A stretch of 64,000 nucleotides of DNA from Craspedostauros australis (GCA_030167865.1 JALAGF010005569.1:1-64000); one strand, 5' to 3'; numbered from the stretch's first letter, positions 20,201-63,744 are shown. Program-made: numbers and translations. The notes: a model not told the origin generated them from the sequence alone.

Positions 20201-20534
20201 CGGCATCCATTGGTTTGCACGCATTCGACTGACACTCCGCTTCGAACTTTTGTGTCTCAACGATCCGGTCATTCCCCAACCAGGTGATGCCGATGCGAGC
20301 AGGACGCCCGTCAGCGATGGCAATGGCAACGCTGCTGCTGTTACTTCTGGTCAGGCGCAATCGAATGGGGATGGCAACGGAGGATTCGGTCATAGCGATG
20401 GTGATGAGCTGGCACCCAGTGTTGGACTCAAGCGCATTCAACAGCTGACTGACAGTGGCGGTGTCAGCGAGGACATCAAGAAGAGCGTGAGCACGCCAGA
20501 CCTGCTGAGTTACTTCGAGGGCATCGTGTACTAG
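8291..20534 (+). CDS. Rabconnectin-3alpha/DmX/RAVE Rav1-like giant protein with additional PDZ, SH2, DEP-like and C2 domains; coding sequence interrupted by an insertion at 9049-9828
   Basis: The 3585-aa ORF 9777-20534 has the Rav1_C signature (PFWIRS...DFSSERGRRAAEKNAFSLLRKNQYEPAAAFFLLA), a PDZ domain (FGLGLRL...GDELLSVNGVSLENMTFDD), an SH2 domain (WEF...RAEATKLL...GRFILRPH...FTLSF...VQHAII...GPFATLMKLL) and a C-terminal C2 domain (LQLAVYEKKFMSDSLLG...EEWVPL). The upstream ORF from ATG 8291 joins it in frame (..MNADADI|GMDEST..) when the element and one ATAT are removed. Confidence 0.88.
9049..9828. mobile_element. TIR DNA transposon / MITE-like insertion with ATAT target-site duplication
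   Basis: ATAT at 9045-9048 and at 9829-9832. Terminal IR CCATAATGA (9049-9057) / TCATTATGG (9820-9828). 82-bp subterminal IRs at 9085-9166 and 9720-9801 (6 mismatches by eye) built from TTGCGTCCGGACGCAA palindromes. AT-rich interior with an N gap. No transposase is visible. Confidence 0.9.
9363..9412. other. Assembly gap (50 N) inside the transposon-like element
   Basis: Run of 50 N; the true element length is unknown. Confidence 0.99.
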
Positions 20535-23216: not shown

Positions 23217-24470
23217 ATGGACGATCCGCCGCATCTGAAGATCAACATCAAGGACGCATCCACCATCAGGAGTCAACTGGATGAATTGAAAGCGAGTGCT
23301 GATGGCGAGGCCGACAATGTCAGAGTTGCTTTGACATTCGACTACCCGTTGACAGAAGAATGCGCGTACGCGATCCGCGACTGCGGACGACTGATACAGG
23401 AGTTGACCTTGCTCCAGTTCAGGGAATCGAGCGCGGAAGGCATCAACTTCCTGGCCTCCGTCATGCAGTCAACAGACTCGCTAGCGCATCTGAGATCGAT
23501 CCATCTGTCATCGCGTTGGGTGAATCCTCACCAACGAGAATATGTCACTGATGAAGATCATCTGGAGGATCTACGGTGTCCATATGGCTCAGAAGAGAGT
23601 GACCCTCACCTATGTCTCATGGCGATACTCCAAGCCATTGCCAGCAACCCGAAGGTGCAGGAGGTCTCCTTGGAAAGACTCCAGCTCACTCTCTCCCATT
23701 TCCAAATTCTCATGAACATGGATGTCACCGCACAGGACGAAGGCATCCCGTTGCGACCATACTGCCACTCCTATCTGAAGAAGCTGGAGATCAGTGATTG
23801 CGAGACACCCCTTGAGTGTTTCCAAACACTGATCCAAGATGAGGTCAGGCAGGCACCTGCCTTGAGACCAAAGCAACCCATGTGCCGACTTCAGCACCTG
23901 CGGTTGCATCGAGCAACCTTCAATGCCTCTTGCATATTGCAGGTTGCCGATCGTCTGCAGCACATCTTCTTGGACATGGAGCCCACCGGGATATCATTGG
24001 ACGCGGCCCGATCCCTCCGCAACCTTCTCTCATCTCCCAACTGCACGCTTCAGACGATGGAGTTGGTGGGACCTTCCCCGCATGTCATTCATGACATCAT
24101 CGATGGAATCGAATCCAACAGATCGCTGGACACATTGACCATGACAGAAGATTTGACCCTGCGTCACTGCACCAAACTACATCACATGGCAAAACACAAT
24201 CCCAACCTGGAGAAGCTCACGCTCAGGTCCCTGTACTTCGATAGGTTCGTCGAAGGTGGAGAGGAGCGTTCCCACTTCTTCCAACGCATGCAATTCGCCG
24301 TGCAACTGCGCGAACAACAGTACGAATGTTTGACAAGCATCACAACTGATTTTCCTTTGTCGCACTGGAGTCACATCTTGCGGCAGTTGCTGCAATCCCG
24401 AAGGGGACAAGCCTACGTGTACGATCTGCTGCATCATCGGGCGGGCGTACTGGGCATTATTCATTCATGA
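23217..24470 (+). CDS. RNI-like/leucine-rich-repeat protein of unknown function (diatom-type)
   Basis: Periodic LxxLxL segments (IQELTL, LRSIHL, VQEVSL, LKKLEI, LQHLRL, LQTMEL, LDTLTM, LEKLTL) and the C-terminal 'PLSHWSHIL...VYDLL' pattern typical of diatom RNI-like proteins. Confidence 0.7.
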   Translation: MDDPPHLKINIKDASTIRSQLDELKASADGEADNVRVALTFDYPLTEECAYAIRDCGRLIQELTLLQFRESSAEGINFLASVMQSTDSLAHLRSIHLSSRWVNPHQREYVTDEDHLEDLRCPYGSEESDPHLCLMAILQAIASNPKVQEVSLERLQLTLSHFQILMNMDVTAQDEGIPLRPYCHSYLKKLEISDCETPLECFQTLIQDEVRQAPALRPKQPMCRLQHLRLHRATFNASCILQVADRLQHIFLDMEPTGISLDAARSLRNLLSSPNCTLQTMELVGPSPHVIHDIIDGIESNRSLDTLTMTEDLTLRHCTKLHHMAKHNPNLEKLTLRSLYFDRFVEGGEERSHFFQRMQFAVQLREQQYECLTSITTDFPLSHWSHILRQLLQSRRGQAYVYDLLHHRAGVLGIIHS

Positions 24471-26665
24471 CTTGTAATACTAGAGGATTGAAAGGCGAAG
24501 AAGGAATCGGGACGATCCTGCGTGGCGATGTGAGGAGGAGAGGTGGACGAGGGCAAGAACTTCCAGCCCAGCAACGACGAGCAGAATCGGCAATAAGTGA
24601 TAGTCCAGCCGTAACCTGGGAAGTATGAATTGTCAGTGCAAGAATCACCGACGAGAACGACCAAATCATCTTCAGTTGGGAAAGGATCTTCATCGTCATC
24701 ACCATCGTTGTTGCCATCGCCGTCTTGATCGCGATCTTGTGCCACCAACAACTTGCGCACAGTCGTTATTTGATGATTGTGCCCATGGGCATTGACGTAG
24801 TTGTCCGTCGATCGCTTGTGATTTGGAGTGTTGCCGCTGCTGGCAGAGTCTGGCCCAACCGCAAATACATCCGATGCTAGCGCCAATGCAGTATCGCATA
24901 CTCCGCAATGGATCTTCAGTTCTTTCGCGATCATCTCCTGAAGTTTACTTTGCAAGAATTGAAGACGTTCAACGACGGTGGATGTGTACAACACTTGCAG
25001 CTTCTCGGTTTGTGAGAATGGAAGCGCGGATGCCAACCGGAATGTGAAGGCGTCAGGATCTTTGCTGCTCTCCTCATCCAGCTGCAGCTGTTGATCTGAT
25101 GTGGCGCAGTTCTTGGCAATGTACTGCTCCCACAGGGAGTGGACTTCATGGAGCAAGATGGATTGCCCATGTCGAAGGTAGGCGTGGTAGGGTATGGAGG
25201 AAGAACGCAGGCAGAGGTTCCATGCAAGGCGGTGCTGACGTTGGCGTTTGGAAGGTCCTACAAAATGGCCCGCGTTGTTTGACGTGCTGGTGCTGGTTGG
25301 GTTGGATACGATGGATGGATACGACTTAGACCTCATAGCACGATGATTGGACTGACGACCGAATGGTTCCACTTGGAACAGCTTCAATCCAGCAAAGCTA
25401 CTCTGCGGAAGTCCTTCGATGATTGTGAATTGGTTGGTTCCAACTGCGGTTACCACAAGTTGGGGCGTCGTAAATGAGATTCGCTGGTCGCTGTCGCCAT
25501 CATGGATCTGCCACAGTGTCGATGTCGATGGCGATGATATGGCCGTCGTAGCGTGGCGGTTGCTAGAACCATGCTGTCTTTGCTGTCGCCCCTGATTGTG
25601 CGTTGCGTCGGTCGCATCAGCTCGATCATCGTCCAAAATGGAATCGTTATGCGTGGAAGTGATGGTCGCGATGGTTCCCACACGACCCACGAAAGGATGC
25701 CGCGGACGAGACGGAGGCTGGGGTCGACGCGATGATGTCGGAGGTGTCCGCGACTCTGCATCCGACGAGTCATCTGCGTCGCTGTCGGAATGATCCTCCA
25801 TTCGCCGGTGCGTGAAGTCATCTTCCAGCCGAACAGTGCCAGCACCGCGCCTGATCCCGCCTTGTCCTCGTTGTTGTTCTGTCCTTGAGCCAAACCCGCC
25901 GCCGCCTCGCAGATCCCGCAACCGGTCCACCATGCCACTCATCGTTAGACGTGACCTGCGTGTGTTTCCACGATTGTTTCGCAGTAAGATTCCATGAAGC
26001 ATGAGCAGGTCATGCATCCGGTCCCTTAGGAATCCGTCTTCTTCTTCGTCTGGTACGGCTCCGGCATCCCGCTGCGTGAGGATGCCAATGGTGATCGGCT
26101 TGGACTTTTGCGGAAGCAACCGACTTTCATTGATCTGCCGTCCGAGGTATTCTCGCAACGCAGGATCACGAATGCGCAATGGGATGGAGGCATTCGGGAA
26201 TAGCACAACGCCAGGCAATTCCAGAATGGGAATCGTTTGCAACTGCCTTGCATTCGCATGGTGATTTGGAGTCGGTGTCGCTCGCCTCGATCTTGGTGAT
26301 TCTTTGGTTGCCTGCGTGTGTCGCCGTGTGTGTGGTCCTGTTGGGATGAACATGCCGGTGTCACCAGAAGAGCTTGACTCATGATCACCGGCATCATCGT
26401 TTGCATCATCGTTTGCATCGTCAAGGTCCCCGGTCCAAAGGGGATGGCCGGGACCCAAAAGATACGAGAAGTCCTTATGCTGCTGTGCTCTCGCGGCTAC
26501 TGCCACACGCCTTCCGTTTCTCGCTCCGCTGGTGCTGCCCATGGAGGGGGTTCGCTGTCGTTTCAGCTGCGACTCTGATTCATTCTCAGATGCTGACGAA
26601 TCGCCATCATCTGGTATTGCAGCGGCAGCTGCAGCTGATGCTGTTGTTGGATTGCTCTCTGACAT
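24461..26665 (-). CDS. CRBN: Cereblon homologue (Lon N-terminal domain + CULT/Yippee Zn-binding domain)
   Basis: IPILELPGVVLFPNASIPLRI (Lon-N); LPFSQTEKLQVL...VERL; CGVC...YVNAHGHNHQITTV...SYFPGYGWTITYCRFCSSLLGWKF, which matches the CULT consensus. First plausible ATG at 26665. Confidence 0.9.
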   Translation of the reverse strand: MSESNPTTASAAAAAAIPDDGDSSASENESESQLKRQRTPSMGSTSGARNGRRVAVAARAQQHKDFSYLLGPGHPLWTGDLDDANDDANDDAGDHESSSSGDTGMFIPTGPHTRRHTQATKESPRSRRATPTPNHHANARQLQTIPILELPGVVLFPNASIPLRIRDPALREYLGRQINESRLLPQKSKPITIGILTQRDAGAVPDEEEDGFLRDRMHDLLMLHGILLRNNRGNTRRSRLTMSGMVDRLRDLRGGGGFGSRTEQQRGQGGIRRGAGTVRLEDDFTHRRMEDHSDSDADDSSDAESRTPPTSSRRPQPPSRPRHPFVGRVGTIATITSTHNDSILDDDRADATDATHNQGRQQRQHGSSNRHATTAISSPSTSTLWQIHDGDSDQRISFTTPQLVVTAVGTNQFTIIEGLPQSSFAGLKLFQVEPFGRQSNHRAMRSKSYPSIVSNPTSTSTSNNAGHFVGPSKRQRQHRLAWNLCLRSSSIPYHAYLRHGQSILLHEVHSLWEQYIAKNCATSDQQLQLDEESSKDPDAFTFRLASALPFSQTEKLQVLYTSTVVERLQFLQSKLQEMIAKELKIHCGVCDTALALASDVFAVGPDSASSGNTPNHKRSTDNYVNAHGHNHQITTVRKLLVAQDRDQDGDGNNDGDDDEDPFPTEDDLVVLVGDSCTDNSYFPGYGWTITYCRFCSSLLGWKFLPSSTSPPHIATQDRPDSFFAFQSSSITSHE

Positions 26666-40060: not shown

Positions 40061-42949
40061 TCACAAAATGTCACAGCAGCACGTGGATTGCTGCAATATG
40101 GGTATCAACGGTTCACCCGTCTCACGTTCGTAAATCAGGAATTCGATCACCTCGGCGGCGTAGGCATGGGGATTGGTCCAGTCCCAATCCTTGTAGTATG
40201 ACTCGTCTCTGGCATCGATCACGCACTCCTGTATCTGTTTGTCTTCCGTGAAGTTTCCAATCTCGCTCTGGGAGGCAGCATTCACGTCTTTGGGTGGCAC
40301 GTAGGGTGGTCGTTTGCGATCGGACAGCACCGATTCCCAGTTCATGTTCTTGAACCAAGGGTGCGCCATGATCTCTTCGCAACCGTTGGTTCCCAACCTC
40401 GTTTTCTCGTTCTTCTCCAGCAATCGTCGGCAGAAGTCAGCGGCATCAGGATCGAACAGGGCACCGGGGAAATCAGGATTCATCTCCATCGTGGCATGGT
40501 CGATTGCTTTTTCCTGCGCGGCATGATCAGGATGAGGGGTTTTCCATGATCCATTCCATAGAAGTGGGAGTCACCGATGTATGCAGCGATTCCAACAGCC
40601 ATTACGTAATCGTCATCATTCATCGTCGCCGTGGTGTATGTGTGTTGCATGTATGGAGAGACGAGTTGGGCGGGGAAGAATAGAATAGAGTACAGCACAG
40701 GAGGGAATTTCAATGTGAGTCACGCTCTCCTATCAACGTGCCAATCTGTAGCACCACCCATTGACAGTACCAACAACATTAGCAGTCGCAGTAACAGTAA
40801 CAGCATTGGCAATCGTAGCAACCACAAAAGAAAGAACGCACCTTCGTTTCCTTGCCCCGTTCCAGCCCAAAGTTAAGCGCGGCCTCCGATCGGAAGGGAT
40901 TGCCCCCTGATATGAACTCCGCCATGCAGCAGCCGTAGCTGAACCAATCCACCGTGTGTCCGTACGGTAGCCGTTTGCCGTTCCTGTCTCGTCGCAGCAT
41001 CTCCGGCGCCCAGTATCCGCGCGTTCCGGCTGCTCCGTGGAGCTTGGGCGTGATCTTGGTGGCCAGGCCGAGATCGGTGATCTTGACGCGTCCCTGTTCA
41101 TCGAGCAGGCAGTTTTCTGGCTTGAGATCTCGGTAGACGTATCCCTTGTCATGAAGGGCTTGGAGACCGAGCATGATGCGGGCACCGTAGTACTGGCATT
41201 CCTTCTTGGGGAATTTGCCTTTCTGATGCAGGTGGTATCCCAGGTCACCGCCGGTCATGAGATCGAGGATGAGGTAGACATCGTCTTTGGAGTGGAAGGA
41301 GTACTTGAGGTTGACGACGAAGGGACTTTCGACAGCCGCCAGAGCCTTGCGTTCGTTGACGGTCAGCGTTTCTGACTTCTTGAGCTTGATGCGCTTCTTG
41401 TTCATGACCTTCATAGCGTACAGTTTTCCTGACGTTCCCTTCTTGCAGGCTGGTGTACACATGTACGCATACATGTACGGTAAATGATGGACGAGAGCAT
41501 TTCAGAGTATGGAGCAGGGTTGGGCAGAACAAGGCAATGCGAGACGACGTGAAGCAATAAACAAACAATCGCAGACAGAACCAAGAGTGGGGATGATGGG
41601 AGTGAGGATACGTGCATTTGGCAACGGAATGAAAATGTGCAGCAACAAGAACTGGACATCAACTCTGCCATATAGGTTGACACCAAAACCTTTGCACACA
41701 TGCACTCACCTGTGACCAAACCAAATCCTCCGCGACCCAAGACGCGCATGGTGAAGAAATCTTCTGGGATGACGGTACGATCTTGAAACCAGAGGAAGTT
41801 GCGCATCTTGGCGAACTTTTCGGATTGCAGAAAGTCTGTCCAGTAATCGCGCCGCAGACCTTCGACGACGATCCACTCGAGCTTGTCGAAGAGGGCGTCG
41901 GAGAGGTTTGCGGATTCTCGCTGCCGCATGCTGTTGGTGAGTTCTCGCAGGGATGTGTAGCGTTGCGTTTGCGATCGTAGGTTGGAAGACGAGGCTGGTT
42001 TCTGAGGGGCGGAGGACGATGGGTTGGATGTCAAGAATTCGGCGCTGCTGCTGGTGGGGGATGTCGTGTTGGTGCTGTGGCGCTTGGGTTGGATGAGATC
42101 CGTGGCGGGTGCCGATCGTCTCTGCTGCACGTTGGCGCGGTCGACCTCGCGCAGCGACTGGAAGACCTCCTCGAGTATCGGTCCGCGGACGCCGAGGCAG
42201 TTGACTGTTGTTGCGATCGTGGTGATGGTGTTGTCGTCCTCGCCGTCGTAACCACCGATGCCGTTGGGTCCTTCATCAAAGTGCAGCGCTGCCGACGATT
42301 GCTGCTGCTGTTCCTGCTGGTTGCCGTCTGGATCCATCGTGAGCGCCGTTGAGGCAGCATCGTTCTTGGCGGAATTCAGCTTGAGGTTCTTCATCATGGG
42401 CACGGTGTTGAGCTCGTACATGTGGTCGAGTTCCTTGGGCGTGAAGCTCATGGGGCGCTTGGCGTTCTTGCCGCTGCTGGAGTTCCTGTCGCTGTTGGCG
42501 ACGCTGATGGTGGTGGTGGTGGTGGTGCGCGCGAGATCGTACTCATCGATCTCCGTGCGTTTGGGGAAGACCACGAGGCCCGTGTCGTGATCGCGCGACA
42601 GCGGTTTGCAGTAGACCTGGACGATTTTGCGCGCCCGTTCCACGCGGTGCTTGCCCTTCATGTACTTCCATCTGGCCACTTCTTCCGCGAAGTTGATCCT
42701 GAGGTAGTCGTTGCAATCCTCCTTGACGAATGCCGAGAAGAGGAAGAATCCGATCGCCCGTTGCAGCGTCCATTCCAGCGAAAGCGGTGTCTCGTCGCCC
42801 CTCGCGTTGCGCCTTAGCATGTGCTCCCAATCCGCGAGCTGTTCTTCCGTCGGGATCTCCCATGCCAGGACGGGACGCGGTCCTTCCTCCTGCGTGGCGA
42901 TGGCGTTGACGTACTGCGCATCCTCGATGGCATCCTGCAGCTCCTCCAT
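40061..42949 (-). CDS. GRK: G protein-coupled receptor kinase (RGS-homology domain + AGC kinase); 3 exons (42949..41710, 41449..40842, 40513..40061)
   Basis: N-terminus MEELQDAIEDAQYVNA resembles the GRK N-helix; RH domain IGFFLFSAF...INFAEEV. Kinase motifs VLGRGGFGLVT|ACKK..LYAMK, YRDLKPEN, the GRK-typical DLGLA, GTRGYWAPE, and the AGC tail PPYVP.KDVNAASQ. Both introns are GT..AG and frame-preserving. Confidence 0.93.
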
Positions 42950-54694: not shown

Positions 54695-56336
54695 ATGAAG
54701 CCATCATGCACAACAAACTCACAGCCAGGTGCTCACAGCACTCTGCGTCAACCATGCGGGAACGATGCGCTCAGCGATTCATCAAAGCAAGACAAGCGTG
54801 TTGTATCTGGCAAGCCAGCTCGATCGGCCCCGTCCACAATCACTTGGTGCCTCCTGTTGGCAGGATTGGCGTTTCTGGGTCAGGTGAGTGTTGTAGAGTA
54901 TGGTACAAATAGAGTATTATTATATTCTATATTATTCTATATGAATGATACTCGTACCATGTTCATACCCGTTCACTCTCCAGATAGAGAGTTGGACATT
55001 CCGCCTTGTCATGCTACGCGTATTACGGATAGCATGCAGTGCACGGGTATGGTGCGGAGAGTATCTCACTTGCGTTCGCCTATGCACCGACTCATTCACC
55101 CCGCTCATTGCAACTGCGCACGATCTACGAGCACACCAGACACGGCAACTTCATCAAGTCCATCAACTCAGCAAGAACACAACGCAACTTGAGAACTTGG
55201 ACCATCTGAGCACTCGTACAATGCCCCAATCGTCCATTCGAATCGAAGCTGCACAATCACGGACGGCGTTCAAATCCAACACGGCCAAGTCAAGCGCGAA
55301 CAAGCAGCATCCCGCCAACGCAATGCGGCAGCAACTTTTAGCTTCGAGCACAAGCGAGAGCACAATATTCTACAACATCTTCATCCCTCCCAATCAAACT
55401 GAAGACGCCATGAAGATCGTTGCGGAGCAGCTGGCATTTCGACAGACATCGTACCTCAGAGACGTCCCGTTGCACTATGTTCTCATTGCACCCAGCGGCA
55501 TAGACGATACTGACACGGCAACAAGCGACATTGCTAAGCGCATCCAATCCATGCCCGGCTGCGAACCATGCACCATGATCCGGCATGTAGCAGACGGGAA
55601 CGAAGAGTTGACGCTGACGCAACTTCATGAACACTGCCAACACCATCCATCCCACCGTGTAGTCTACATCCATTCCAAAGGCACATACCATCCGACCCTC
55701 AGCAATGACATCCTGCGTCGATTATCCATGCGCGCCGTCACATCCAAACAGTGCAATACTGCCAGATCCGCCTGCAATGTGTGCTCCGCCCATTTCTCCG
55801 TCTACCCGTTCTTCACCGCAACCGGCAACTTCTTCGTCGCTCAATGCCAATACGTGCAACAGCTTCTGCCACCCACAACCTACCGACAACGCAAGGATTA
55901 TTTGCATGGAATGTTGGGCACCTTCAATACGACATCATCGCCCTTGTCACAGAACTTCACGATGACGCCGCAACACCTCGAGAAGGGCAAACGGTTGATC
56001 CACTCTTCGTCTCCGTCCGCCGCGTTCCTCCAAAACTCGACACGACGCAAATCATGGATCGGTGTGGGCCGCAACGCCATGGAACATTGGGTGCATTCGC
56101 ATCCCAACGTGCAGCCCTGCGACGTGCATCCCACGTACCGTGGTGCGTACGTCCTATTGAACCGCGGCATCGAAAAGTTCCGTCCCACCGTGCTGCAGGT
56201 TCCGTCGATGCGGACGAGCAAGCACAAAGCCGAATTCGCCCCGTGGTTTCAATTGGAAGGGCGGTTGTTGGAATGGGAATGGATGTACAACGCAGTTCCG
56301 AACAACGACAGTTGGATCTACGGAGTATTACGTTGA
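54695..56336 (+). CDS. Putative type II membrane glycan-modifying/glycosyltransferase-like protein; probable intron starting at 54884 (acceptor 54983 or 55139)
   Basis: Exon 1 ends in a TM helix (TWCLLLAGLAFLGQ|GTGAGT); both candidate acceptors are in frame with the long ORF. Motifs IFYNIFIP, EELTL..L..HC, VVYIHSKG, GNFFVAQCQYV..L, R.AMEHWV. The function is inferred only. Confidence 0.65.
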
Positions 56337-56499
56337 ATTGAGACGGCAGGCGATAGACACAGCCATGGCGACAGCGGTGGTGCTGTTGGTATTTCCCACA
56401 ATAGTAGTAGTAGTAGTAGTCTGACGTGCTCTATGCTACTCTGCTCTATGAGATTCTACAGTGTTACTCCATCTACGACACCACCTACGAGTACGTACC

Positions 56500-58731
56500 C
56501 TACACAAACGATTGGGTCGAGTAGTGCTCATCCTCCAGCGGACGTAGGACTTGTTGATTCCACGCGTAATCTCGGAAGATCTGCAACGCCGTGCGGTCCG
56601 TGACGATCATACGATCTTCGGTGATGGCATTGTCCACATCCGGAACCTCCAGGTAGGAGAGATATCCGTCACGACCATCGACGGGATTCGCGTAATGAAT
56701 GGCCAGACTGTAGGTGGCGTCGAGGTTGATGGCAACGTACTCGCCGCCATCGGCACGGACCTCCACATTGGAAAGGCGTTGGCCTTGGCGTTCGGTGCTG
56801 TTGACATCAAAGCGCATGCCCGCCGTGTAGGGATACAAGCAGCTGCATGCGGCCGTCGCGAAAGTCTTGTCGAGATTCGATTCCAGGATCGACACGATCT
56901 CCTGACCGGTCGCGTTGGGGATGATGATGATGTCGTTTGGAATCGGGATGATGAGCAAGGTGTCGGCGACGCTGAGGTTGCCGGCACGGATGTCCGAATC
57001 GACGGCGGCGGCGTTCTGGAGGACGATGTCGACATTCATGGCACGTCGGATGGAGGAGGCAACCAACGTAGCGACGTCGCCACCGTGTTGAGACGTTTGA
57101 TTGACGGGACACAGATCGCTGTATCCGGATCCTGGCACGCGTTCGTTGCACAACGTTGAAGGTACGGTGGCGATCGTGGCTGCGAATGAGAGGTCGGGGG
57201 GCATGCCCGATGATGTTGGTGCCTGCGTCGCAACGGCAGTGGGAGATGCCGTCGGAGACGCGGTCTCGTTGGCGCGCGGGGGACGCACGATGGATTTGGT
57301 GCCGTCGTCGGAGGTTGACAGAAGCGTCGTCACCGCCACCGCCACGGCGACGATGCACACAATAGCGATGAGCCCAATGATCATGATACGATGTCGATTG
57401 CAGAAGGACGGCTCCTTTTCTGGTGCATCGCATCTGACGACCATGGTGGGTTCGATCATAATTTGCTCTTGCGACTCGGGGTCCCTTTGGGCTTTGCCGC
57501 TGCCGACCACGTACCCCGTGAGGACGCTGTCGGAGACCACATGTTGCACGGCAGCGTCCTCGATCATTTCTTCCGATCGCGACGATGACGTGTTGGATAT
57601 TGCCGTGCTGGAGGTCTTGGCATCGTAGACAAACTCATCGTCAACCTCAACGAGACCTTGTTCCATGGCCGCGTCGCTGTGAAGCATGGCGTTGTTGCGA
57701 GCATAGTACGCACCGGGACGCAGGTCCGCTTCTGCCGCCATATCCAAGAGTTCTTCCGTTTGCGCACTCGCATCGGGAGGAGATCGCAATGCTGGATCAT
57801 GGAATGCGGCTTCGTTCGAGACAGCAGCGGACTGCGTTTGCTCCTGCAGCAGTTCCGAACTGAACTTGCAATCCGCGTTCGTTGTCGCGAACGAGGATGA
57901 GTTGGAACGCATCGGAAGATGCCTGGAGCTGTCCTCCCTTACGGAAAGCAAAAAATCGCTGCCCGTGTCCTTGTAGTACATACCGACGGAGGGTGTGCGC
58001 ATCGGTGGCGCTTGCTTTCCGCCTTGATGCACAGCTGGGATCGCGCGCGGTGAAGATGGCTGCGTGGCAGATTGTGACATGGTGGATGACATGGATGCGC
58101 CTTTCTGAGCTTCCAGGGCAATCCTGGAGGCCACTTGCGAAGCTGTGGTAGCTGCGGATCCGCGGCCCGATGCGAAGGAGGCGGCTCCAGTAGGATATGT
58201 GGCTGATTCCGTGAACGCGGTGGTGTTCGAAGCAGTGGTGAACGCGGAGGTGGAGGCAGTGGATGCCCTGGATTGCGGGAAGCCGTGGGTGTAGCTGCGC
58301 GAAGATGCTTTTGCCTTTGCTTTTGCATCGTCGTCATCCCGCTGCTGCTGCTGTCTTTGCCTTCTACTTGCACGATGTGCCCGGGCCTGGGCTGTCGTTG
58401 AAGTGGTCGTTGCGGATGTGGATGTAGATGTGGATGCAGTTGTTGGCTCAGCCGTCGGCGTTGACGCGGATGCCGATGTCGGTGGAGAGATGGCCTCTGC
58501 AGCCGGTGGCTTCTTCTTGGATGGTGCTTGGTTGTTGTTCATGATTGTATTTGATGTTGATGTTGATGTTAATGATAATGTTGATGAAAATGTGGGTATA
58601 GCTGGAGAGTTGTGGGATGTATTGGTGATCGAAGGAGGCTCTGGCTGCAGTTGTTGCTGATGTCGTTGTTGCGGAGGCTGAACCACAACATCGCTCGATT
58701 CCACCTCGCCGGCGTGATTGATCCTCTTCAT
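56500..58731 (-). CDS. Type II membrane protein with an extracellular 5'-nucleotidase C-terminal (substrate-binding) domain only
   Basis: About 450-aa disordered N-terminus (with PGAY), TM helix IMIIGLIAIVCIVAVAVAVTTLL, PTASPT stalk, then LCNERVPG..GG.V..LVA, DIVLQNAAAV, ATGQEIVSILE, YPYTAGMRFDVN, R.SNVEV, GRDGY. No metallophosphoesterase motifs. Confidence 0.88.
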   Translation of the reverse strand: MKRINHAGEVESSDVVVQPPQQRHQQQLQPEPPSITNTSHNSPAIPTFSSTLSLTSTSTSNTIMNNNQAPSKKKPPAAEAISPPTSASASTPTAEPTTASTSTSTSATTTSTTAQARAHRASRRQRQQQQRDDDDAKAKAKASSRSYTHGFPQSRASTASTSAFTTASNTTAFTESATYPTGAASFASGRGSAATTASQVASRIALEAQKGASMSSTMSQSATQPSSPRAIPAVHQGGKQAPPMRTPSVGMYYKDTGSDFLLSVREDSSRHLPMRSNSSSFATTNADCKFSSELLQEQTQSAAVSNEAAFHDPALRSPPDASAQTEELLDMAAEADLRPGAYYARNNAMLHSDAAMEQGLVEVDDEFVYDAKTSSTAISNTSSSRSEEMIEDAAVQHVVSDSVLTGYVVGSGKAQRDPESQEQIMIEPTMVVRCDAPEKEPSFCNRHRIMIIGLIAIVCIVAVAVAVTTLLSTSDDGTKSIVRPPRANETASPTASPTAVATQAPTSSGMPPDLSFAATIATVPSTLCNERVPGSGYSDLCPVNQTSQHGGDVATLVASSIRRAMNVDIVLQNAAAVDSDIRAGNLSVADTLLIIPIPNDIIIIPNATGQEIVSILESNLDKTFATAACSCLYPYTAGMRFDVNSTERQGQRLSNVEVRADGGEYVAINLDATYSLAIHYANPVDGRDGYLSYLEVPDVDNAITEDRMIVTDRTALQIFRDYAWNQQVLRPLEDEHYSTQSFV

Positions 58732-59686
58732 GTTGGCAAGACTCTTACTCCTCTATTAGCAGAGAGCAGCTCGCACTCGTAATAGTCGTATGTGTGGTTA
58801 CAAAACCGATTGGTGACCGTTGCTCTGTGCACCTTCGGATGAAGAGTGTTGTTGGGGGTTTCGGTGATACTCTGTCACTCCTTTCATGCCTGTTTGAGAG
58901 ACTCTCTTTCAGTGGCCACTGCATTGTACTCTATTCGGGTGCATCTTCTTGCGTTGTTGCCCAGACACGTCAAACACACAAGTTGGCTTGTGGAGATGTT
59001 GCAAACTGGCGACTCTTTTGCCCAAGACCGAAATCAGGACTGGTCAACTCTCCCCAATGCTTGTGTGAGCGCGAGAATGCACGACACCAAGTTGCGCCGG
59101 AAGAAGCGTTGTGGCAAGCCACAATTTCGTGACCTTCCCCTCTCTGTGTCTTCCGTTGATGTTGACCGGTAAGACCACTTTTTTTCTTTTTGTGACACGC
59201 GCTTGCGTGTGTGTGATGTTGTGTTCAGTCACATGTAGCGGGCAATTGTTCTCATTCACATGAAATCAGGAGGCCCAAAGAACTTCATGTTCGCCGTCTC
59301 GCACCTTGTTTAAGGCAGCCGAAGACTACAACGCTTAGTAAATTCCGACTATTTGGTGGCGCGTCTGTCACAAAGCCGGAGAAAGATTCGTCCGGAGTAG
59401 TCCAGCAGAGTATCACAGAAAACATCATGTGAACAAGCACGAAAACCAAAAGAGGGACAAACGCCACAAACGCAAACAAGCGCTGAGCGGTCCTCACGCA
59501 AAACCGTGATGGTTGATGCGAAGAATCAAAATGGCATGGGCTTGTTCATACCCGCTCCCGTTCTGAATCTCAACAGTCAGCACCAACGATGGATTTATCA
59601 TGCTGTTCTGAGACCTCTCACAAACTCATCGAAGCCCACAACAACTATACTCGTACGACCGCTCGCACAATCATCACAGCACAGAA

Positions 59687-59731
59687 ACAAGTCAACAACA
59701 AGTCAACAACAAGTCAACAACAAGTCAACAC
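59687..59731 (+). repeat. 11-bp tandem repeat x4 in the 5' region of the downstream gene
   Basis: (acaagtcaaca)x4. Confidence 0.8.
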
Positions 59732-59818
59732 CACACTTCTCCAACCCAAACCAAGTATTATACGAGGACCTGAACTCGTCCACCCGACCTCCGTCTACAT
59801 CCGAGCACTCCAACCACA

Positions 59819-61693
59819 ATGGCAGATTCAGCACCAATTCCATCCACATCCATGCCACAATCGCTGCATCAACCCAATCAACAACCCAATCAACAACCCA
59901 ATCAGCAACACAATCAGCAGCAACCGCAGATGCAAAGCAGCTTGCCAAAACGCCAGGACGCCATGGCACTCGCAGTGAAAGCGGCAGACATGCAGCAGCA
60001 TCTCTCCAATAACAATGGAATCAACGACGACACCCACGACAACGGCCACAGCAACATCAATCACAAAGATGTTGCAACATCTCCCATGCGCAAACAGATC
60101 AAGCTGACGTCCAAGAAAGCGGGTATCGATACGACTGTGCGTGAGAGCATCAATGACACCAACCAGGCTACTGCTGAAGCCGACACCAACGCCAAGCACC
60201 GCGCAACGTATCAAATCCTGCAATCTGCCTCTGCTTCTGCAACTTCAGCTCAATCGGCCGTCTCCATACCGATCCGCAATCCAACGGATGCCGAAAAGCT
60301 GCTGCACAACCAACAGCAACAGCGCGCTTCCACGTCCAGCCGCATACGGACACTCAGATCCAGCGCAGCGCAACCCCAATCGATGCAGACTGCACCCGAC
60401 TATCTCGCGTCGCCCGCAGCAGCCATGCCGGATTCGACCCAGCCCCGACATTCACTTGCTACCAGCGTAGGTCACAATAACGACGACAGCGGCGACGACA
60501 GCGCCCTGCTCGACATGTCCACTCCAAGCAAGTCGAAGTCCGGCAAGCCAAACTCACCAACATTCCAACCGACTCCGCATGAGAAGGTGAAGAAGACTGG
60601 CGAAAAGGCCATGGAGGCAGCATCTCTGGACGTGCTTCCCATGGCCATGCCCGTCAGTGTGGAAGACGAAGGACCAGAGGATTACGATATTGAACAGGAT
60701 GGCCATCACAAGCAGCCGGTCATCGCAAGGGCAGAGGACCCTACAAAGCCCGCCCAAGTCGACCAACAACGTAAGCGCCGTCTATGCATCATCATTGCTG
60801 TTTTCGTCGTCTTGATTGCGATCGGTGCCGTCGTCGGAATCGTGCTAGCGTCCTCGTCCCCAACGAGGAACAATGACAACACTCCCACTACTACACCAAC
60901 TCCGGCAGCACCCGCAACTCCGGATGCACCCACCGCTGCGCCGCAGCAAGGATCGGCCACTGATGCACCCACCACCTTCGACGTGAACGATCTGCCAACC
61001 GATCTCGTCATCGCGCAGGTGGAATCCACAATCTGCCTCGATCGGTTCCCTGGCATGGGGTACACACGCCTTTGCAATCGCAACGACACCAAAACGCAAG
61101 GTGGTGGCGTCTGCAACATCGTCGCGCAAGCCTTCCTCGATCAGGTCGATGGAGCCGATTTCACGCTCCAAAACGCCGGTGCTTGCCGCACCGATTTGGC
61201 GCCGGGCAACTTCACGATCGATGATGCCAAGAACGTCCTTCCGTTCACCAACCACCTCCTCACATTCCAAGTCACGGGTGCCGAGATCGTCACGCTGCTC
61301 GAACAAGGACTGCACCACGCCTTCGGTCCCAACAATTCCACCGGTGGATATCCCTACTGCGCTGGCATCCGGTACGACGTCGACGCCAACCAGGCTTTCA
61401 ACAACCGCACTACCAATGTCGAGGTCAACCCTCGCCTCGCCAGCGACACGTGGACTCCCATCGATTTGGAGCGGCAATATACGTTGGCGACCAACTCGTA
61501 CGTTGGATTCGCAGGCGACAGCTACACCTTGTTCCAAGACAAGGTTCCGACCGACACCAACTTGGATGCCACGCAGTCCTTCATCCGGTACGCTGTCGCT
61601 CAAGGATACTTGCGAGATCCGCCGCTGGAGGAGTACTCCACTCAGTACTTCGCACCGTACGTTTGGTCGGGTCACGTATCCAGGAGGAAGTAA
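59819..61693 (+). CDS. Paralogous type II membrane protein with an extracellular 5'-nucleotidase C-terminal domain only
   Basis: Disordered N-terminus, RKRR + TM helix LCIIIAVFVVLIAIGAVVGIVLA, PT stalk, then ICLDRFPG..GGGVCNIVAQAF, ADFTLQNAGACRTD, VLPFTN, VTGAEIV.LLE, GGYPYCAGIRYDVD, ATNSY..AGDSY. Confidence 0.9.
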   Translation: MADSAPIPSTSMPQSLHQPNQQPNQQPNQQHNQQQPQMQSSLPKRQDAMALAVKAADMQQHLSNNNGINDDTHDNGHSNINHKDVATSPMRKQIKLTSKKAGIDTTVRESINDTNQATAEADTNAKHRATYQILQSASASATSAQSAVSIPIRNPTDAEKLLHNQQQQRASTSSRIRTLRSSAAQPQSMQTAPDYLASPAAAMPDSTQPRHSLATSVGHNNDDSGDDSALLDMSTPSKSKSGKPNSPTFQPTPHEKVKKTGEKAMEAASLDVLPMAMPVSVEDEGPEDYDIEQDGHHKQPVIARAEDPTKPAQVDQQRKRRLCIIIAVFVVLIAIGAVVGIVLASSSPTRNNDNTPTTTPTPAAPATPDAPTAAPQQGSATDAPTTFDVNDLPTDLVIAQVESTICLDRFPGMGYTRLCNRNDTKTQGGGVCNIVAQAFLDQVDGADFTLQNAGACRTDLAPGNFTIDDAKNVLPFTNHLLTFQVTGAEIVTLLEQGLHHAFGPNNSTGGYPYCAGIRYDVDANQAFNNRTTNVEVNPRLASDTWTPIDLERQYTLATNSYVGFAGDSYTLFQDKVPTDTNLDATQSFIRYAVAQGYLRDPPLEEYSTQYFAPYVWSGHVSRRK

Positions 61694-62106
61694 GCAGCGC
61701 GGGGCTTTACCGATTGATTGGATGGATGGATGGATGGATGACTGATTTTAACATGTAAGGGGCAAGCGACATGAGTCGCACAGTGCAGCATATGCTAGAG
61801 ATCGTCTCATCCATAACACTAGAGCACTCGTGGTGATGAACTTTGATGGACGCAATCTCGTTAGATATCGGGATATACGGTAAATATACATTATATATAC
61901 TATTGAAAGGTCTCTCGTTCCGCTGAAGAAGAACGGACAGTCGTGACATATGACGAATAGAATGTGGTTGAATTTCTCGACCTGAATCGGCTCCCACCAC
62001 AACAACATGACACGCACCCAACGCGCGCAAATGGCCAGAGCAGGCCACAGAATGAACACGCACAGCTACTGAAACCACAATAATCAAGATCACGACGACG
62101 ACGACG

Positions 62107-63744
62107 ATGATGATGCCATCCAAGTGTGATGTTGCTGGGATCCTTCTGCTTGCCTTTGCCCATGGCTTTCCAGTGCATGCATTCCATTCATCTGCCAACC
62201 ATGATGCGATCACACACATGGGAAAGATAGCTGATAATGAACCCAACTATCATCTGAACGGGCACACACGCATGCCTTGCCTGCATCAACAGCGACCATT
62301 TGCAACGGCAGGATCCACCGTTGTCCGAGCTTCGCCGTTGGATAGTGACGCGGACGATGGAAGTGACGACTCGGCCATGGATGAAGAAGAACGCATGCGC
62401 AAGGTCCGTGAATTGCAAAAGATCTTCTACTCGTCCGGAAGTGACGGCGAGACGCCCGACGATGGATCGGGATCCGCATCAGATTCAGACAGCGATGCCA
62501 ACAGCAGTGCATTCCCGCGCAACTTTGATCCCACCACCGGCAGGATCGAGAATGTCCCACTGTGGAGAGTCGGTTGGACTGAGGTGCCGGGACGTACCAA
62601 CGTCTTGAACGTCCACGAGGGGCATTACACCAACATGTTCGAGACCATCTTCGCTCGGCCGCAGCCTTGGTACTTTGGCCATCTGCACTTGCCGGGTGGC
62701 TCCAAATCTCTCACCAACGCAAACGAGCAACGATTCAAGCTCAAATCGTGGCGGGAGGAGATCCAGGACACCACGCGCTTCGACAGCACGAAGCAGCGCG
62801 ATCGATCGTCGGTGGTGGGTGTGCTGATGCGAGCAACCGATTATCGTCGCATGACGGATGGTCGGCTCGTCATCTTGGTGCAAGCCACGGAGAGATTCGT
62901 GGTCCAGGATGTTGTGGAGAGCTTTCCGTACGGATTGGCGACCGTGCAGATCTTGCCGGACAGGGAAGAGATGCTGTTGGCGGAAGCAGGCGACGGCGTT
63001 GCGTTGGATTTGCCTTCGACGTCGTCCGCACGATCCGAAGCTGCTGCAAAGCAAGCCAGAGCGCTCGCGGTTTGCAAGGCACTCGAACTTCATGGGTATG
63101 AATACGCCAACACGCAGCTGTCCAGCACGAAGGACAAAGATTACTTGTCTCAACAGGACGTCTCTGGCCAAGACATTGCCAAAGTGCTACCGTTCGCTGT
63201 CTACAATTGCACGAATCTGCAACTGCTGACTTCGACTGCACAGGCAGCGACAATGAGAGCACCGACCTCTGCTGAAGCTGCTGCTGCTGTGCTGTCTGAC
63301 GAAGACGACGGTTCGCTTTCACTTGAGCAACAGCTCCAAAGCGAACTCATCTTGCGAAATCCACCACCGCTATCCCGCATTCAACAGCAGGATGGGAAAT
63401 CCATAGTGGTTGCCACAGCGTCACCCAACGACGCACCGGCCAAATCCATGACACTGGACGAGCTCGAAGCGGCTGTCTGGGTCTCGTTGGATGGCTTTTG
63501 CCGTGCCGCCAACTTTCGATTGCCGGGAGAGATCAAATTCCTCCGCACGATGGACCCAGCATACCCGTCCATTCGAAGGCAGCAACGCTTGAGCTACGCT
63601 GTGCCTGCCATTTTGGAGAACATCAACATTGGTGCTGGGATGCGGAATATCTGGCTATGCACACCAAGTACGCACGCGCGGCTGGACGCTTTGTTGGAGC
63701 GTCTCGAGTTATTGAATGAAGCTGTTATGGGGGAGTATGAATGA
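62107..63744 (+). CDS. Lon N-terminal (substrate-binding/PUA-like) domain protein, probably plastid-targeted
   Basis: Signal peptide + 'VHAFH'; VPLWRVGWTEVPGRTNVLNVHEGHYTNMFE, VVGVLMR...DGRLVILVQATERF.V, and C-terminal RQQRLSY...R..WL..PST.ARL resemble the Lon-N fold. No AAA or protease domain. Confidence 0.72.
   Translation: MMMPSKCDVAGILLLAFAHGFPVHAFHSSANHDAITHMGKIADNEPNYHLNGHTRMPCLHQQRPFATAGSTVVRASPLDSDADDGSDDSAMDEEERMRKVRELQKIFYSSGSDGETPDDGSGSASDSDSDANSSAFPRNFDPTTGRIENVPLWRVGWTEVPGRTNVLNVHEGHYTNMFETIFARPQPWYFGHLHLPGGSKSLTNANEQRFKLKSWREEIQDTTRFDSTKQRDRSSVVGVLMRATDYRRMTDGRLVILVQATERFVVQDVVESFPYGLATVQILPDREEMLLAEAGDGVALDLPSTSSARSEAAAKQARALAVCKALELHGYEYANTQLSSTKDKDYLSQQDVSGQDIAKVLPFAVYNCTNLQLLTSTAQAATMRAPTSAEAAAAVLSDEDDGSLSLEQQLQSELILRNPPPLSRIQQQDGKSIVVATASPNDAPAKSMTLDELEAAVWVSLDGFCRAANFRLPGEIKFLRTMDPAYPSIRRQQRLSYAVPAILENINIGAGMRNIWLCTPSTHARLDALLERLELLNEAVMGEYE

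What the first reader, a model, noticed from the sequence alone, without database searches (positions are those of the whole stretch)
56500..61693. Head-to-head pair of receptor-like membrane proteins carrying only the nucleotide-binding half of 5'-nucleotidase
Seen: two divergently oriented paralogues (1,087 bp between starts), each with a long disordered cytosolic N-terminus, one TM helix, a Pro/Thr stalk and a ~220-aa 5'-nucleotidase C-terminal domain. Neither has the calcineurin-like catalytic domain (no DxH, GD, GNHE), and there is no room for it between TM and domain. Known: in UshA/CD73/NadN the C-domain binds the nucleotide while the N-domain holds the dimetal site. Inference: catalytically dead nucleotide/nucleoside-capture proteins or extracellular-nucleotide receptors, possibly co-regulated and heterodimeric. 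This is a candidate undescribed sensing or scavenging system.
Basis: partly seen in the sequence, partly recalled or inferred. Interest (0 to 1): 0.75.

Follow-up and report, generated by a model that had tools for sequence, protein, structure and literature searches.

The report
Diatom membrane proteins with half a nucleotidase
Two neighbouring, oppositely oriented genes encode membrane-anchored proteins that keep only the nucleotide-binding half of a 5'-nucleotidase and belong to a sizeable, unstudied diatom family that databases wrongly label as the enzyme.

Summary
Gene A (56500-58731, minus, 743 aa) and gene B (59819-61693, plus, 624 aa) lie head to head with 1,087 bp between their ATGs. 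Each has a long low-complexity N-tail, one TM helix, a 51-54 aa Pro/Thr stalk and a single PF02872 domain. No metallophosphatase domain is found in either protein or anywhere in the 64-kb window.

They are not an isolated oddity. Of 203 relatives gathered, 63 have the same build: tail, TM, then one or two C-domains, with no N-domain. The 4 named ones are all raphid pennate diatoms, and one is annotated "5'-nucleotidase".

- B keeps all six CD73-type ligand-contact residues. So do 18 of 35 domains in its clade, at about 43% mean identity, which argues that a nucleotide or nucleoside pocket is still under selection.
- A is a fast-evolving copy. It has lost a phosphate arginine and one adenine-clamp residue, and the segment holding the second clamp is remodelled.
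- The tandem subfamily has lost the pocket entirely.

Catalysis is excluded. Nucleotide binding by B is inferred. A receptor role, heterodimerisation and co-regulation remain untested. I rate this a new variant of a known kind, of moderate interest.

The parts
56500..58731 (-). Gene A, single open frame of 743 codons plus stop (P0001)
   Evidence: chance of staying open about 5e-14
57388..58731 (-). A: N-terminal tail, residues 1-448. Rich in S/A/T/P/Q, with no Pfam domain. Predicted cytosolic.
   Evidence: no similarity to the tails of 61 relatives
57331..57387 (-). A: transmembrane helix, residues 449-467 (signal anchor)
   Evidence: Kyte-Doolittle 19-mer mean 3.32; 3 K/R before it against 1 after
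57178..57330 (-). A: Pro/Thr/Ser/Ala stalk, residues 468-518 (51 aa)
56503..57177 (-). A: 5'-nucleotidase C-terminal domain, residues 519-743. The pocket is remodelled: R395 equivalent is Asp, F417 equivalent is Ile, and there is an insertion at the F500/D506 segment.
   Evidence: Pfam; tblastn 57177..56503; residues; AF2 pLDDT 89.2 with a low-confidence loop
58732..59818 (.). Shared 1,087-bp intergenic spacer between the two divergent starts (GC 0.49). Holds an 11-nt tandem repeat, AACAAGTCAAC x4, at 59686-59729.
59819..61693 (+). Gene B, single open frame of 624 codons plus stop (P0002)
   Evidence: chance of staying open about 7e-12
59819..60787 (+). B: N-terminal tail, residues 1-323. Rich in A/S/Q/P/D, with a QQPN repeat near the start and no Pfam domain above its cut-off. 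Predicted cytosolic.
60788..60844 (+). B: transmembrane helix, residues 324-342 (signal anchor)
   Evidence: Kyte-Doolittle mean 3.34; 5 K/R before it against 1 after
60845..61006 (+). B: Pro/Thr stalk, residues 343-396 (54 aa)
61007..61654 (+). B: 5'-nucleotidase C-terminal domain, residues 397-612. All six ligand-contact residues are kept (R409, N452, R457, F476, Y561, D567).
   Evidence: Pfam; PDB alignments; residue mapping; AF2 pLDDT 94; Foldseek best match NadN 3ztv, E 3.3e-20

Best explanation
A and B are intact paralogous genes for type II (N-in, C-out) single-pass membrane glycoproteins. Their only folded module is the substrate-binding C-terminal domain of a NadN/CD73-type ecto-5'-nucleotidase, held on a mucin-like Pro/Thr stalk. 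The metallophosphatase half, which carries the dimetal site, is gone, so neither protein can hydrolyse nucleotides (shown).

They belong to a diatom family that arose from the full-length secreted enzyme. In that family a long disordered tail and a signal anchor stand where the signal peptide and N-domain stand in the full-length enzymes (shown at family level).

B keeps the complete pocket: two aromatic clamp residues, Asn and Asp for the ribose, and two Arg for the phosphate. It most likely still binds a nucleoside or nucleotide at the exoplasmic face without turning it over. That would make it a capture, presentation or sensing module, perhaps working beside separate phosphatases or transporters (inferred).

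A is probably the product of a local inverted duplication followed by accelerated divergence. Its pocket has been rebuilt, so it most likely no longer binds nucleotides in the canonical way and has a different ligand or a regulatory or partner role (inferred).
For: Architecture and missing domain:
- PF02872 is the only family above its cut-off and PF00149 is absent at E<=1.
- No N-domain remnant exists anywhere in the 64 kb.
- The stalks of 51 and 54 aa leave no room for it.

Family:
- My own N-domain and C-domain HMMs, run on the 203 relatives, give 63 proteins with TM plus one or two C-domains and no N-domain.
- Pfam confirms 0 of 61 of these carry PF00149.
- All 63 have the TM before the domain, and K/R is higher on the N-side in 57 of 63.
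- In a 199-row tree, all but 3 of the C-only domains (probable fragments) fall outside the full-length group. The label 'full' needs 4 changes against 66.5 when shuffled.
- The named members are Seminavis robusta, Fragilariopsis cylindrus, Nitzschia sp. and Cylindrotheca fusiformis.

Fold: AF2 models reach pLDDT 94 (B) and 89 (A). The best PDB match is NadN 3ztv, E 3.3e-20, TMq 0.74.

Pocket:
- The CD73 contacts are F417/F500 (base), N390/D506 (ribose) and R354/R395 (phosphate). AMP binds the C-domain of the open form in a preformed site (PMC8677862, passages).
- HMMER alignments to NadN and cobra 5'-NT place B's N452, R457, F476, Y561 and D567 on these sites.
- All six are kept in 92 of 105 full-length domains, 18 of 35 single-clade domains including B, and 0 of 56 tandem domains.
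- In 23 pocket-keeping truncated domains (mean pairwise identity 43%), the chemistry is kept at 20-23 of 23 per site.

A and B as sisters: the tree with A and B held together scores 9.95 log-likelihood units higher than the free-search tree, p-AU 0.714. End branches are 1.25 (A) against 0.48 (B).

Exoplasmic hints: 4-5 N-x-S/T sequons in each ectodomain, and a nearly invariant Cys pair (C406/C419 in B).
Against: - No binding, localisation or expression measurement exists.
- Pocket conservation in B could reflect fold constraints or recent ancestry rather than ligand binding.
- Half of B's own clade and the whole tandem subfamily have dropped the pocket. The fold can therefore serve a nucleotide-independent role, which may also apply to B.
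- The 23-member 'pocket-keeping' set was defined after seeing the tree and the residues.
- The backbone of the trees is weak (support 81-92). A single origin of the truncation is compatible with the data but not shown.
- The A+B sister result involves a long branch.
- Topology rests on hydropathy and the positive-inside rule only.
- The start codons and the long tails are inferred from open frames. Internal Met codons just before each TM could give short-tailed forms.
- No whole genome was available to ask whether a separate N-domain protein or a full-length enzyme exists in this organism.
Confidence: 0.6

Rival explanations
1. Nucleotide-independent surface or endomembrane glycoproteins. The C-domain fold has been recruited as a scaffold for protein or glycan contacts (cell surface, wall or adhesion related). 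The intact pocket in B is a leftover with no ligand role.
For: - 0 of 56 tandem domains and 17 of 35 single-clade domains, including A, lack the full pocket. These proteins still remain intact, anchored and diverse.
- The stalks are mucin-like Pro/Thr.
- All 4 named members come from raphid pennate diatoms.
Against: In 23 truncated domains with only 43% mean identity, the six pocket positions keep their chemistry in 20-23 of 23. That is hard to explain without selection on the pocket. No paper links these proteins to the wall or to adhesion: 'nucleotidase' had 0 occurrences in the 12 gliding/adhesion papers listed.
Confidence: 0.22
2. Split enzyme. The membrane-anchored C-domain pairs in trans with a separately encoded metallophosphatase (N-domain-only) protein to rebuild 5'-nucleotidase activity at the membrane.
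For: The review PMC8475336 (passages) reports that the isolated UshA N-domain hydrolyses ATP, ADP and pNPP but not AMP. The C-domain therefore supplies AMP specificity, and trans supply is conceivable.
Against: - Catalysis in the fused enzymes needs a 96-114 degree rotation about the covalent linker helix.
- No N-domain gene lies in the 64-kb window.
- Among the 203 relatives gathered, none was an N-domain-only form. However, the searches were made with the C-domain and could not have found one.
- The rest of the genome could not be searched.
Confidence: 0.08
3. Ligand-sensing receptor. Nucleotide binding to B outside, alone or with A, changes the state of the long cytosolic tail and signals inward.
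For: - N-in/C-out topology with an intact pocket in B.
- Long tails are kept open across the family (median 248 aa, up to 1,348).
- One relative (P0007) carries a DUF6824 domain in its tail.
Against: - The tails of A and B have no Pfam domain, and no detectable similarity to each other (best E 1.9) or to the tails of 61 relatives.
- 60 of 61 relatives scanned have no tail domain.
- Tail length runs from 9 to 1,348 aa, so the tail is dispensable in some members.
Confidence: 0.1
4. Artefact: wrong gene models or decaying pseudogenes of a full-length nucleotidase.
For: Neither exact protein sequence is in the 15-billion-protein collection. Expression is not established.
Against: - Both frames are intact over 743 and 624 codons.
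- The TM lies directly upstream of the domain.
- The same build recurs in 61 relatives, including annotated diatom genomes.
- No N-domain remnant is found in the window.
- Both domains fold with high confidence.
Confidence: 0.03

Closest known systems
Haemophilus influenzae NAD nucleotidase NadN (PDB 3ztv/3zu0)
   Same: Closest solved relative of the ectodomain. Sequence E 2.3e-28; Foldseek E 3.3e-20, TMq 0.74, 28% identity. The pocket motifs align residue for residue with B.
   Different: NadN is a soluble periplasmic two-domain enzyme with the metallophosphatase N-domain. A and B have no N-domain and are anchored by an N-terminal TM helix with a long tail.
Human ecto-5'-nucleotidase CD73 and snake-venom 5'-nucleotidases
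   Same: Same C-domain fold. B keeps the equivalents of R354, N390, R395, F417, F500 and D506. Both are displayed on the outer face of a membrane.
   Different: CD73 is catalytic, carries the dimetal N-domain, and is GPI-anchored at its C-terminus (recalled). Here the anchor is N-terminal, there is no catalysis, and identity is only 14-18%.
Full-length diatom 5'-nucleotidase, e.g. Fistulifera solaris FisN_26Hh177 (P0004)
   Same: Closest named relative of B's domain: 51% identity, E 1.7e-61. Shares the NadN-like C-domain, including the C...R.PG.G...C loop and the terminal YSTQSF motif.
   Different: P0004 has a hydrophobic N-terminus and PF00149 before the C-domain. It ends in a hydrophobic stretch after a Pro/Ala/Glu-rich spacer. 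That is the opposite anchoring, and a complete enzyme.
Seminavis robusta CAB9522301.1, annotated '5'-nucleotidase' (P0154), and Fragilariopsis cylindrus OEU16242.1 (P0225)
   Same: P0154 has the same truncated build (tail, TM, single C-domain, no PF00149) and the same clade as A and B. P0225 was not analysed here; it lies in the 90%-identity cluster of the tandem-form P0084.
   Different: Only 33-41% identical to B. They are automatic annotations with no experimental work found. Whether they also sit in head-to-head pairs is unknown.
Pseudoenzymes in general
   Same: An enzyme-family member that has lost the catalytic machinery but is retained and diversified. The concept comes from reviews seen only as a search listing and abstracts (PMC5106787, PMC10211241).
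   Different: Here a whole catalytic domain has been removed rather than catalytic residues mutated. What remains is the substrate-binding domain alone, re-anchored in the membrane.

Membership tests
Bifunctional metallophosphatase/5'-nucleotidase (UshA, NadN, CD73; EC 3.1.3.5) | N-terminal calcineurin-like metallophosphatase domain (PF00149) with dimetal site and Asp-His dyad | tested here: not met
   No PF00149 at E<=1 in A or B. My own N-domain HMM finds nothing. tblastn with 5 full-length relatives finds no N-domain anywhere in the 64-kb window.
Bifunctional metallophosphatase/5'-nucleotidase (UshA, NadN, CD73; EC 3.1.3.5) | C-terminal substrate-binding domain (PF02872) with the family fold | tested here: met
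   PF02872 E 1.2e-15 (A) and 2.2e-27 (B). AF2 pLDDT 89 and 94. B's model matches NadN, Thermus 5'-NT, CD73 and UshA at Foldseek probability 1.00. A's model was not fold-searched.
Bifunctional metallophosphatase/5'-nucleotidase (UshA, NadN, CD73; EC 3.1.3.5) | Six ligand-contact residues of the C-domain (CD73 R354, N390, R395, F417, F500, D506) | tested here: inconclusive
   B: 6 of 6 kept (R409, N452, R457, F476, Y561, D567). A: R and N kept, R395 is D, F417 is I, and the F500/D506 segment is ambiguous because of an insertion of about 12 aa. So the feature is met for B and not met for A.
Bifunctional metallophosphatase/5'-nucleotidase (UshA, NadN, CD73; EC 3.1.3.5) | Phosphohydrolase activity on 5'-nucleotides | not testable with these tools
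   Needs an enzyme assay. Absence is predicted because the whole catalytic domain is missing.
Diatom TM-anchored C-domain-only family (defined here; no published description found) | Tail, single TM helix and short stalk, then one or two PF02872 domains, with no PF00149 | tested here: met
   A and B fit this build. 63 of 203 gathered proteins share it. 0 of 61 carry PF00149. 63 of 63 have the TM before the domain.
Diatom TM-anchored C-domain-only family (defined here; no published description found) | C-domain groups with other truncated members rather than with full-length enzymes | tested here: met
   FastTree places a 35-row clade of single-domain forms, holding A and B, at support 85. IQ-TREE places all truncated rows on one side with one full-length row, at support 81. 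Support is modest, and A sits on a long branch.
Cell-surface receptors with a signalling output domain | A recognisable cytosolic signalling or enzymatic domain | tested here: not met
   No Pfam family in the tail of A or B. Among 61 relatives, only P0007 has a tail domain (DUF6824, function unknown).

The most novel reading that the evidence does not exclude
The family is a diatom-specific class of extracellular nucleotide or nucleoside sensors. A catalytically stripped, membrane-tethered 5'-nucleotidase C-domain reads external AMP, ATP, NAD or nucleosides. It passes the signal through a fast-evolving disordered cytosolic tail, which in at least one relative carries a DUF6824 module. Pocket-intact (B-type) and pocket-rebuilt (A-type) paralogues would pair as sensor and modulator, expressed from a shared divergent promoter.
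Probability: 0.1. Interest if true: 0.85.

Novelty: new variant of a known kind. Interest (0 to 1): 0.55.

Why it matters
5'-nucleotidase transcripts and proteins are used as markers of organic-phosphorus scavenging in diatom cultures and field metatranscriptomes:
- PMC5825098 and PMC3315573 (passages);
- bioRxiv 10.1101/2025.04.09.648040 (passages).

A large diatom family carries only the PF02872 half, and at least one genome annotates such a protein as "5'-nucleotidase" (Seminavis robusta). Annotation by domain or by best hit will therefore count non-enzymes as enzymes.

Biologically, the family is a natural experiment. The substrate-binding domain of an ecto-enzyme was cut loose and re-anchored the other way round in the membrane. 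It then either kept or rebuilt its pocket. If B-type members bind nucleotides, they are candidates for capture or sensing of external nucleotides in a major phytoplankton group, where I know of no described nucleotide receptor (my recollection; not searched for here).

Tried and rejected
- Sequencing runs: no RNA holder listed. One run of guessed kind (X1) held 21% of the sampled words.
- Laying X1: contigs with 100% identity and no joints cover 56432-57136 (3' part of A plus 68 nt past the stop) and 61271-61840 (3' part of B plus 147 nt past the stop). They also cover the 3' parts of both flanking genes. The run's kind is a guess, so transcription is not shown. The uncovered 5' parts carry no information.
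- Complex prediction of the A and B ectodomains: no answer.
- Whole-genome search: no genome is held. I could not look for full-length or N-domain-only genes in the same organism.
- Profile search with alignment A1: swamped by low-complexity words from the tails. Only 4 hits, none useful.
- ESM Atlas: only generic PF02872 clusters, scores 0.83.
- Metagenome loci: the first alignment was too diverse for a pattern. The second returned 80 loci at 35-48% identity. 77 of 80 have an N-domain and the other 3 are cut at a contig end, so these are full-length forms and give no context for the truncated family.
- Tail comparison: no similarity between the tails of A or B and any other tail.
- A UIM-like helix motif ([FL]AL[SQ][LF]A) is present in 5 relatives, in 4 of them in the cytosolic tail, but not in A or B.
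- Intergenic spacer: no shared palindromic or repeated element beyond an 11-nt tandem repeat. No promoter analysis was attempted.
- Earlier findings of this scan: nothing.
- Literature searches for a description of C-domain-only 5'-nucleotidase relatives in diatoms found none. These searches cover open-access full text only, not supplements.


Full report
**1. What is there**

The window reads like a gene-dense, intron-poor eukaryote, with long ATG-to-stop frames on both strands and GC 0.50-0.58. At the reported place there are two divergent open frames:
- A: 56500..58731 on the minus strand, 743 aa.
- B: 59819..61693 on the plus strand, 624 aa.

The ATGs are 1,087 bp apart. From window base composition, a frame stays open over 743 or 624 codons with probability about 5e-14 or 7e-12. 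The tails alone (448 and 323 codons) give 1e-8 and 2e-6.

**2. Domain content**

At E<=1, Pfam gives PF02872 (5_nucleotid_C) as the only family above its cut-off in each protein: A 549-690, E 1.2e-15; B 422-573, E 2.2e-27. B also has a sub-threshold NadN_nucleosid_C match. PF00149 is absent.

BLASTP aligns A and B from the TM helix to the C-terminus at 31% identity (E 2e-34). The tails do not align; the best tail hit has E 1.9.

I ran tblastn with five full-length relatives against all 64 kb. It hits only the two C-domains, starting at residues 351-391 of the queries, which is where their C-domain begins. No match to an N-domain scored better than E 0.2.

Each protein has a single strongly hydrophobic 19-mer (A 449-467, B 324-342). 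A Pro/Thr/Ser/Ala stretch of 51 or 54 residues follows before the domain.

K/R residues lie on the N-side of the helix: 3 against 1 in A and 5 against 1 in B. The ectodomains carry 5 (A) and 4 (B) N-x-S/T sequons and a conserved Cys pair. This fits an N-in/C-out signal-anchor protein with a glycosylated exoplasmic domain. The topology is inferred, not measured.

**3. Fold**

The ectodomains were modelled with a 65-row alignment. They fold at pLDDT 94.0 (B) and 89.2 (A). Foldseek puts B next to:
- H. influenzae NadN (3ztv, E 3.3e-20, TMq 0.74);
- the Thermus 5'-nucleotidase;
- many CD73 entries;
- UshA.

By sequence, NadN is also the best solved relative (E 2.3e-28).

**4. A family, not a one-off**

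Three searches gathered the 203 proteins classed here, A and B included. The exhaustive search counted 4,226 library hits at E<=1e-3, of which the best 150 were returned. I classed all 203 with HMMs built here for the N-domain and the C-domain, plus a hydropathy scan:

| Class | Count |
|---|---|
| Both domains (full-length) | 115 |
| Truncated with TM: single-clade forms 34 (one of them, P0060, with two C-domains) and tandem-clade forms 29 | 63 |
| Rest: short fragments, plus three C-only proteins that group with the full-length enzymes | 25 |

Pfam on 61 of the truncated relatives found PF00149 in 0 of 61. The only tail domain was DUF6824 in P0007. All 63 truncated proteins, counting A and B, have the TM before the domain. 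K/R is higher before the helix in 57, equal in 5 and lower in 1. Tail length runs from 9 to 1,348 aa with a median of 248.

Cluster look-ups named four members:
- Seminavis robusta CAB9522301.1, annotated "5'-nucleotidase";
- Fragilariopsis cylindrus OEU16242.1;
- Nitzschia sp. Nitz4;
- Cylindrotheca fusiformis.

That all four are raphid pennate diatoms is my own knowledge. The closest named full-length enzyme is from the diatom Fistulifera solaris (51% identity). The other truncated members come from unnamed environmental or run assemblies, so the true taxonomic range is unknown. Neither A nor B is present letter for letter in the 15-billion-protein collection.

**5. Phylogeny**

I built a FastTree of 199 C-domains:
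- The single-domain truncated forms, with A and B, fall in one 35-row group (support 85).
- The tandem forms fall in a 56-row group whose first and second domains separate cleanly.
- The full-length enzymes fall in a 108-row group. It also holds three C-only rows that are probably fragments.

The label "full" needs 4 changes, against 66.5 for shuffled labels.

A 57-row IQ-TREE run gives the same picture with weak backbone support (81). One loss of the N-domain is compatible with the data but not demonstrated.

Forcing A and B together gives a tree 9.95 log-likelihood units better than the free search (p-AU 0.714). A's end branch is 1.25, against 0.48 for B. The simplest reading is a local inverted duplication with accelerated change in A. 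The long branch is a caveat.

**6. The pocket**

In CD73, AMP bound to the open form sits wholly on the C-domain, in a preformed site. Phe417 and Phe500 clamp the base, Asn390 and Asp506 hold the ribose, and Arg354 and Arg395 hold the phosphate (PMC8677862, passages read). A review states the same division of labour for UshA (PMC8475336, passages read).

HMMER alignments of B to NadN and to cobra 5'-nucleotidase line up the N-x4-R, LPF and aromatic-x5-D motifs. In B the six positions are R409, N452, R457, F476, Y561 and D567, all conserved.

A keeps R and N. It has Asp for R395 and Ile for F417, and both lie in gap-free blocks. The segment with F500/D506 carries an insertion of about 12 residues. 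MAFFT and BLASTP align it differently, and AF2 models it with low confidence. A therefore keeps 3 or 4 of the 6.

Across the data set, all six are kept as follows:

| Set | All six kept |
|---|---|
| Full-length domains | 92 of 105 |
| Single-clade domains | 18 of 35 |
| Tandem first domains | 0 of 28 |
| Tandem second domains | 0 of 28 |

The losses in the single clade are concentrated in one 11-row subclade. There R354 is Gln in 10 of 11 and R395 is Leu or Val in 9 of 11.

In the remaining 23 domains (mean pairwise identity 43%) the chemistry is kept at:
- R in 22 of 23;
- N in 23 of 23;
- R/K in 20 of 23;
- aromatic in 23 of 23 (the F417 position);
- aromatic in 22 of 23 (the F500 position);
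- D in 22 of 23.

I defined that set after seeing the tree, so it illustrates the pattern rather than testing it. Even so, the pattern points to continued selection on a nucleotide-type pocket in B-type members long after the catalytic domain was lost. It also points to repeated abandonment or rebuilding of the pocket elsewhere in the family.

**7. Mechanism**

Shown:
- The proteins lack the catalytic domain.
- They are anchored by an N-terminal helix.
- They carry a well-folded NadN-like C-domain.
- They belong to a diversified diatom family.

Inferred:
- The domain faces outward or into a lumen.
- B still binds a nucleoside or nucleotide without hydrolysing it.
- A has moved to another ligand or role.

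How binding would be used is open. Options are hand-over to phosphatases or transporters, sensing through the tail, or buffering. The receptor version has no positive support, because the tails have no domains and no conserved motifs. The rival explanations are scored in their own section.

**8. Expression and pairing**

No RNA run is on record. Contigs of one small run of guessed kind match the 3' parts of A and B, and of both neighbouring genes, exactly and collinearly. This is compatible with cDNA but does not prove it. The complex prediction for the two ectodomains gave no answer. Co-regulation from the shared spacer is untested.

**9. Novelty**

The domain and its parent enzymes are textbook. 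The truncated, re-anchored build exists in public diatom annotations, but only as automatic labels. Seven full-text searches found no paper that describes or tests it. Supplements and non-open papers were not covered.

I rate it a new variant of a known kind. It is moderately interesting biologically. It is also practically relevant, because the family can be miscounted as 5'-nucleotidase in phosphorus-stress studies.

Noticed in passing
window 9825-20534 (+): A single 3,569-aa open frame carries a RAVE/Rav1p_C match (E 1.1e-29) and also an SH2 domain match (residues 2737-2809, E 1.2e-6, above Pfam's cut-off). An SH2 domain in a rabconnectin/RAVE-like protein of a diatom-like organism is unusual.
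   Followed up: no
window 24464-26665 (-) and 62107-63744 (+): Two separate open frames in the window each carry a LON substrate-binding (PF02190) domain and no protease domain. One of them is the immediate downstream neighbour of gene B.
   Followed up: no
window 59686-59729 and 59867-59922: An 11-nt tandem repeat (AACAAGTCAAC x4) lies about 90 nt upstream of B's ATG. A 12-nt repeat inside the start of B's coding region encodes a QQPN repeat.
   Followed up: partly
relatives P0058, P0063, P0068, P0071 and 24 more: A tandem subfamily has a tail, a TM and two C-domains in a row. First and second domains form separate clades, so the duplication is old. None of the 56 domains keeps the six ligand residues.
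   Followed up: partly
relatives P0006, P0013, P0078, P0135 (cytosolic tails): A short helix-like motif ([FL]AL[SQ][LF]A followed by acidic residues, reminiscent of a ubiquitin-interacting motif) recurs in the tails of four members of the pocket-degenerate subclade. It is absent from A and B.
   Followed up: partly
relative P0007 residues 249-334: One truncated relative carries a DUF6824 domain (E 5.5e-18) in its cytosolic tail. No paper mentions this domain.
   Followed up: partly
window 41414-42949 (-): A 512-aa open frame with an RGS (regulator of G-protein signalling) domain match, E 8.7e-8.
   Followed up: no
window 54945-56336 (+): The upstream neighbour, convergent with gene A, is a 463-aa open frame with no Pfam match. 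Its 3' end is 163 bp from A's stop codon, and an X1 contig covers it.
   Followed up: no
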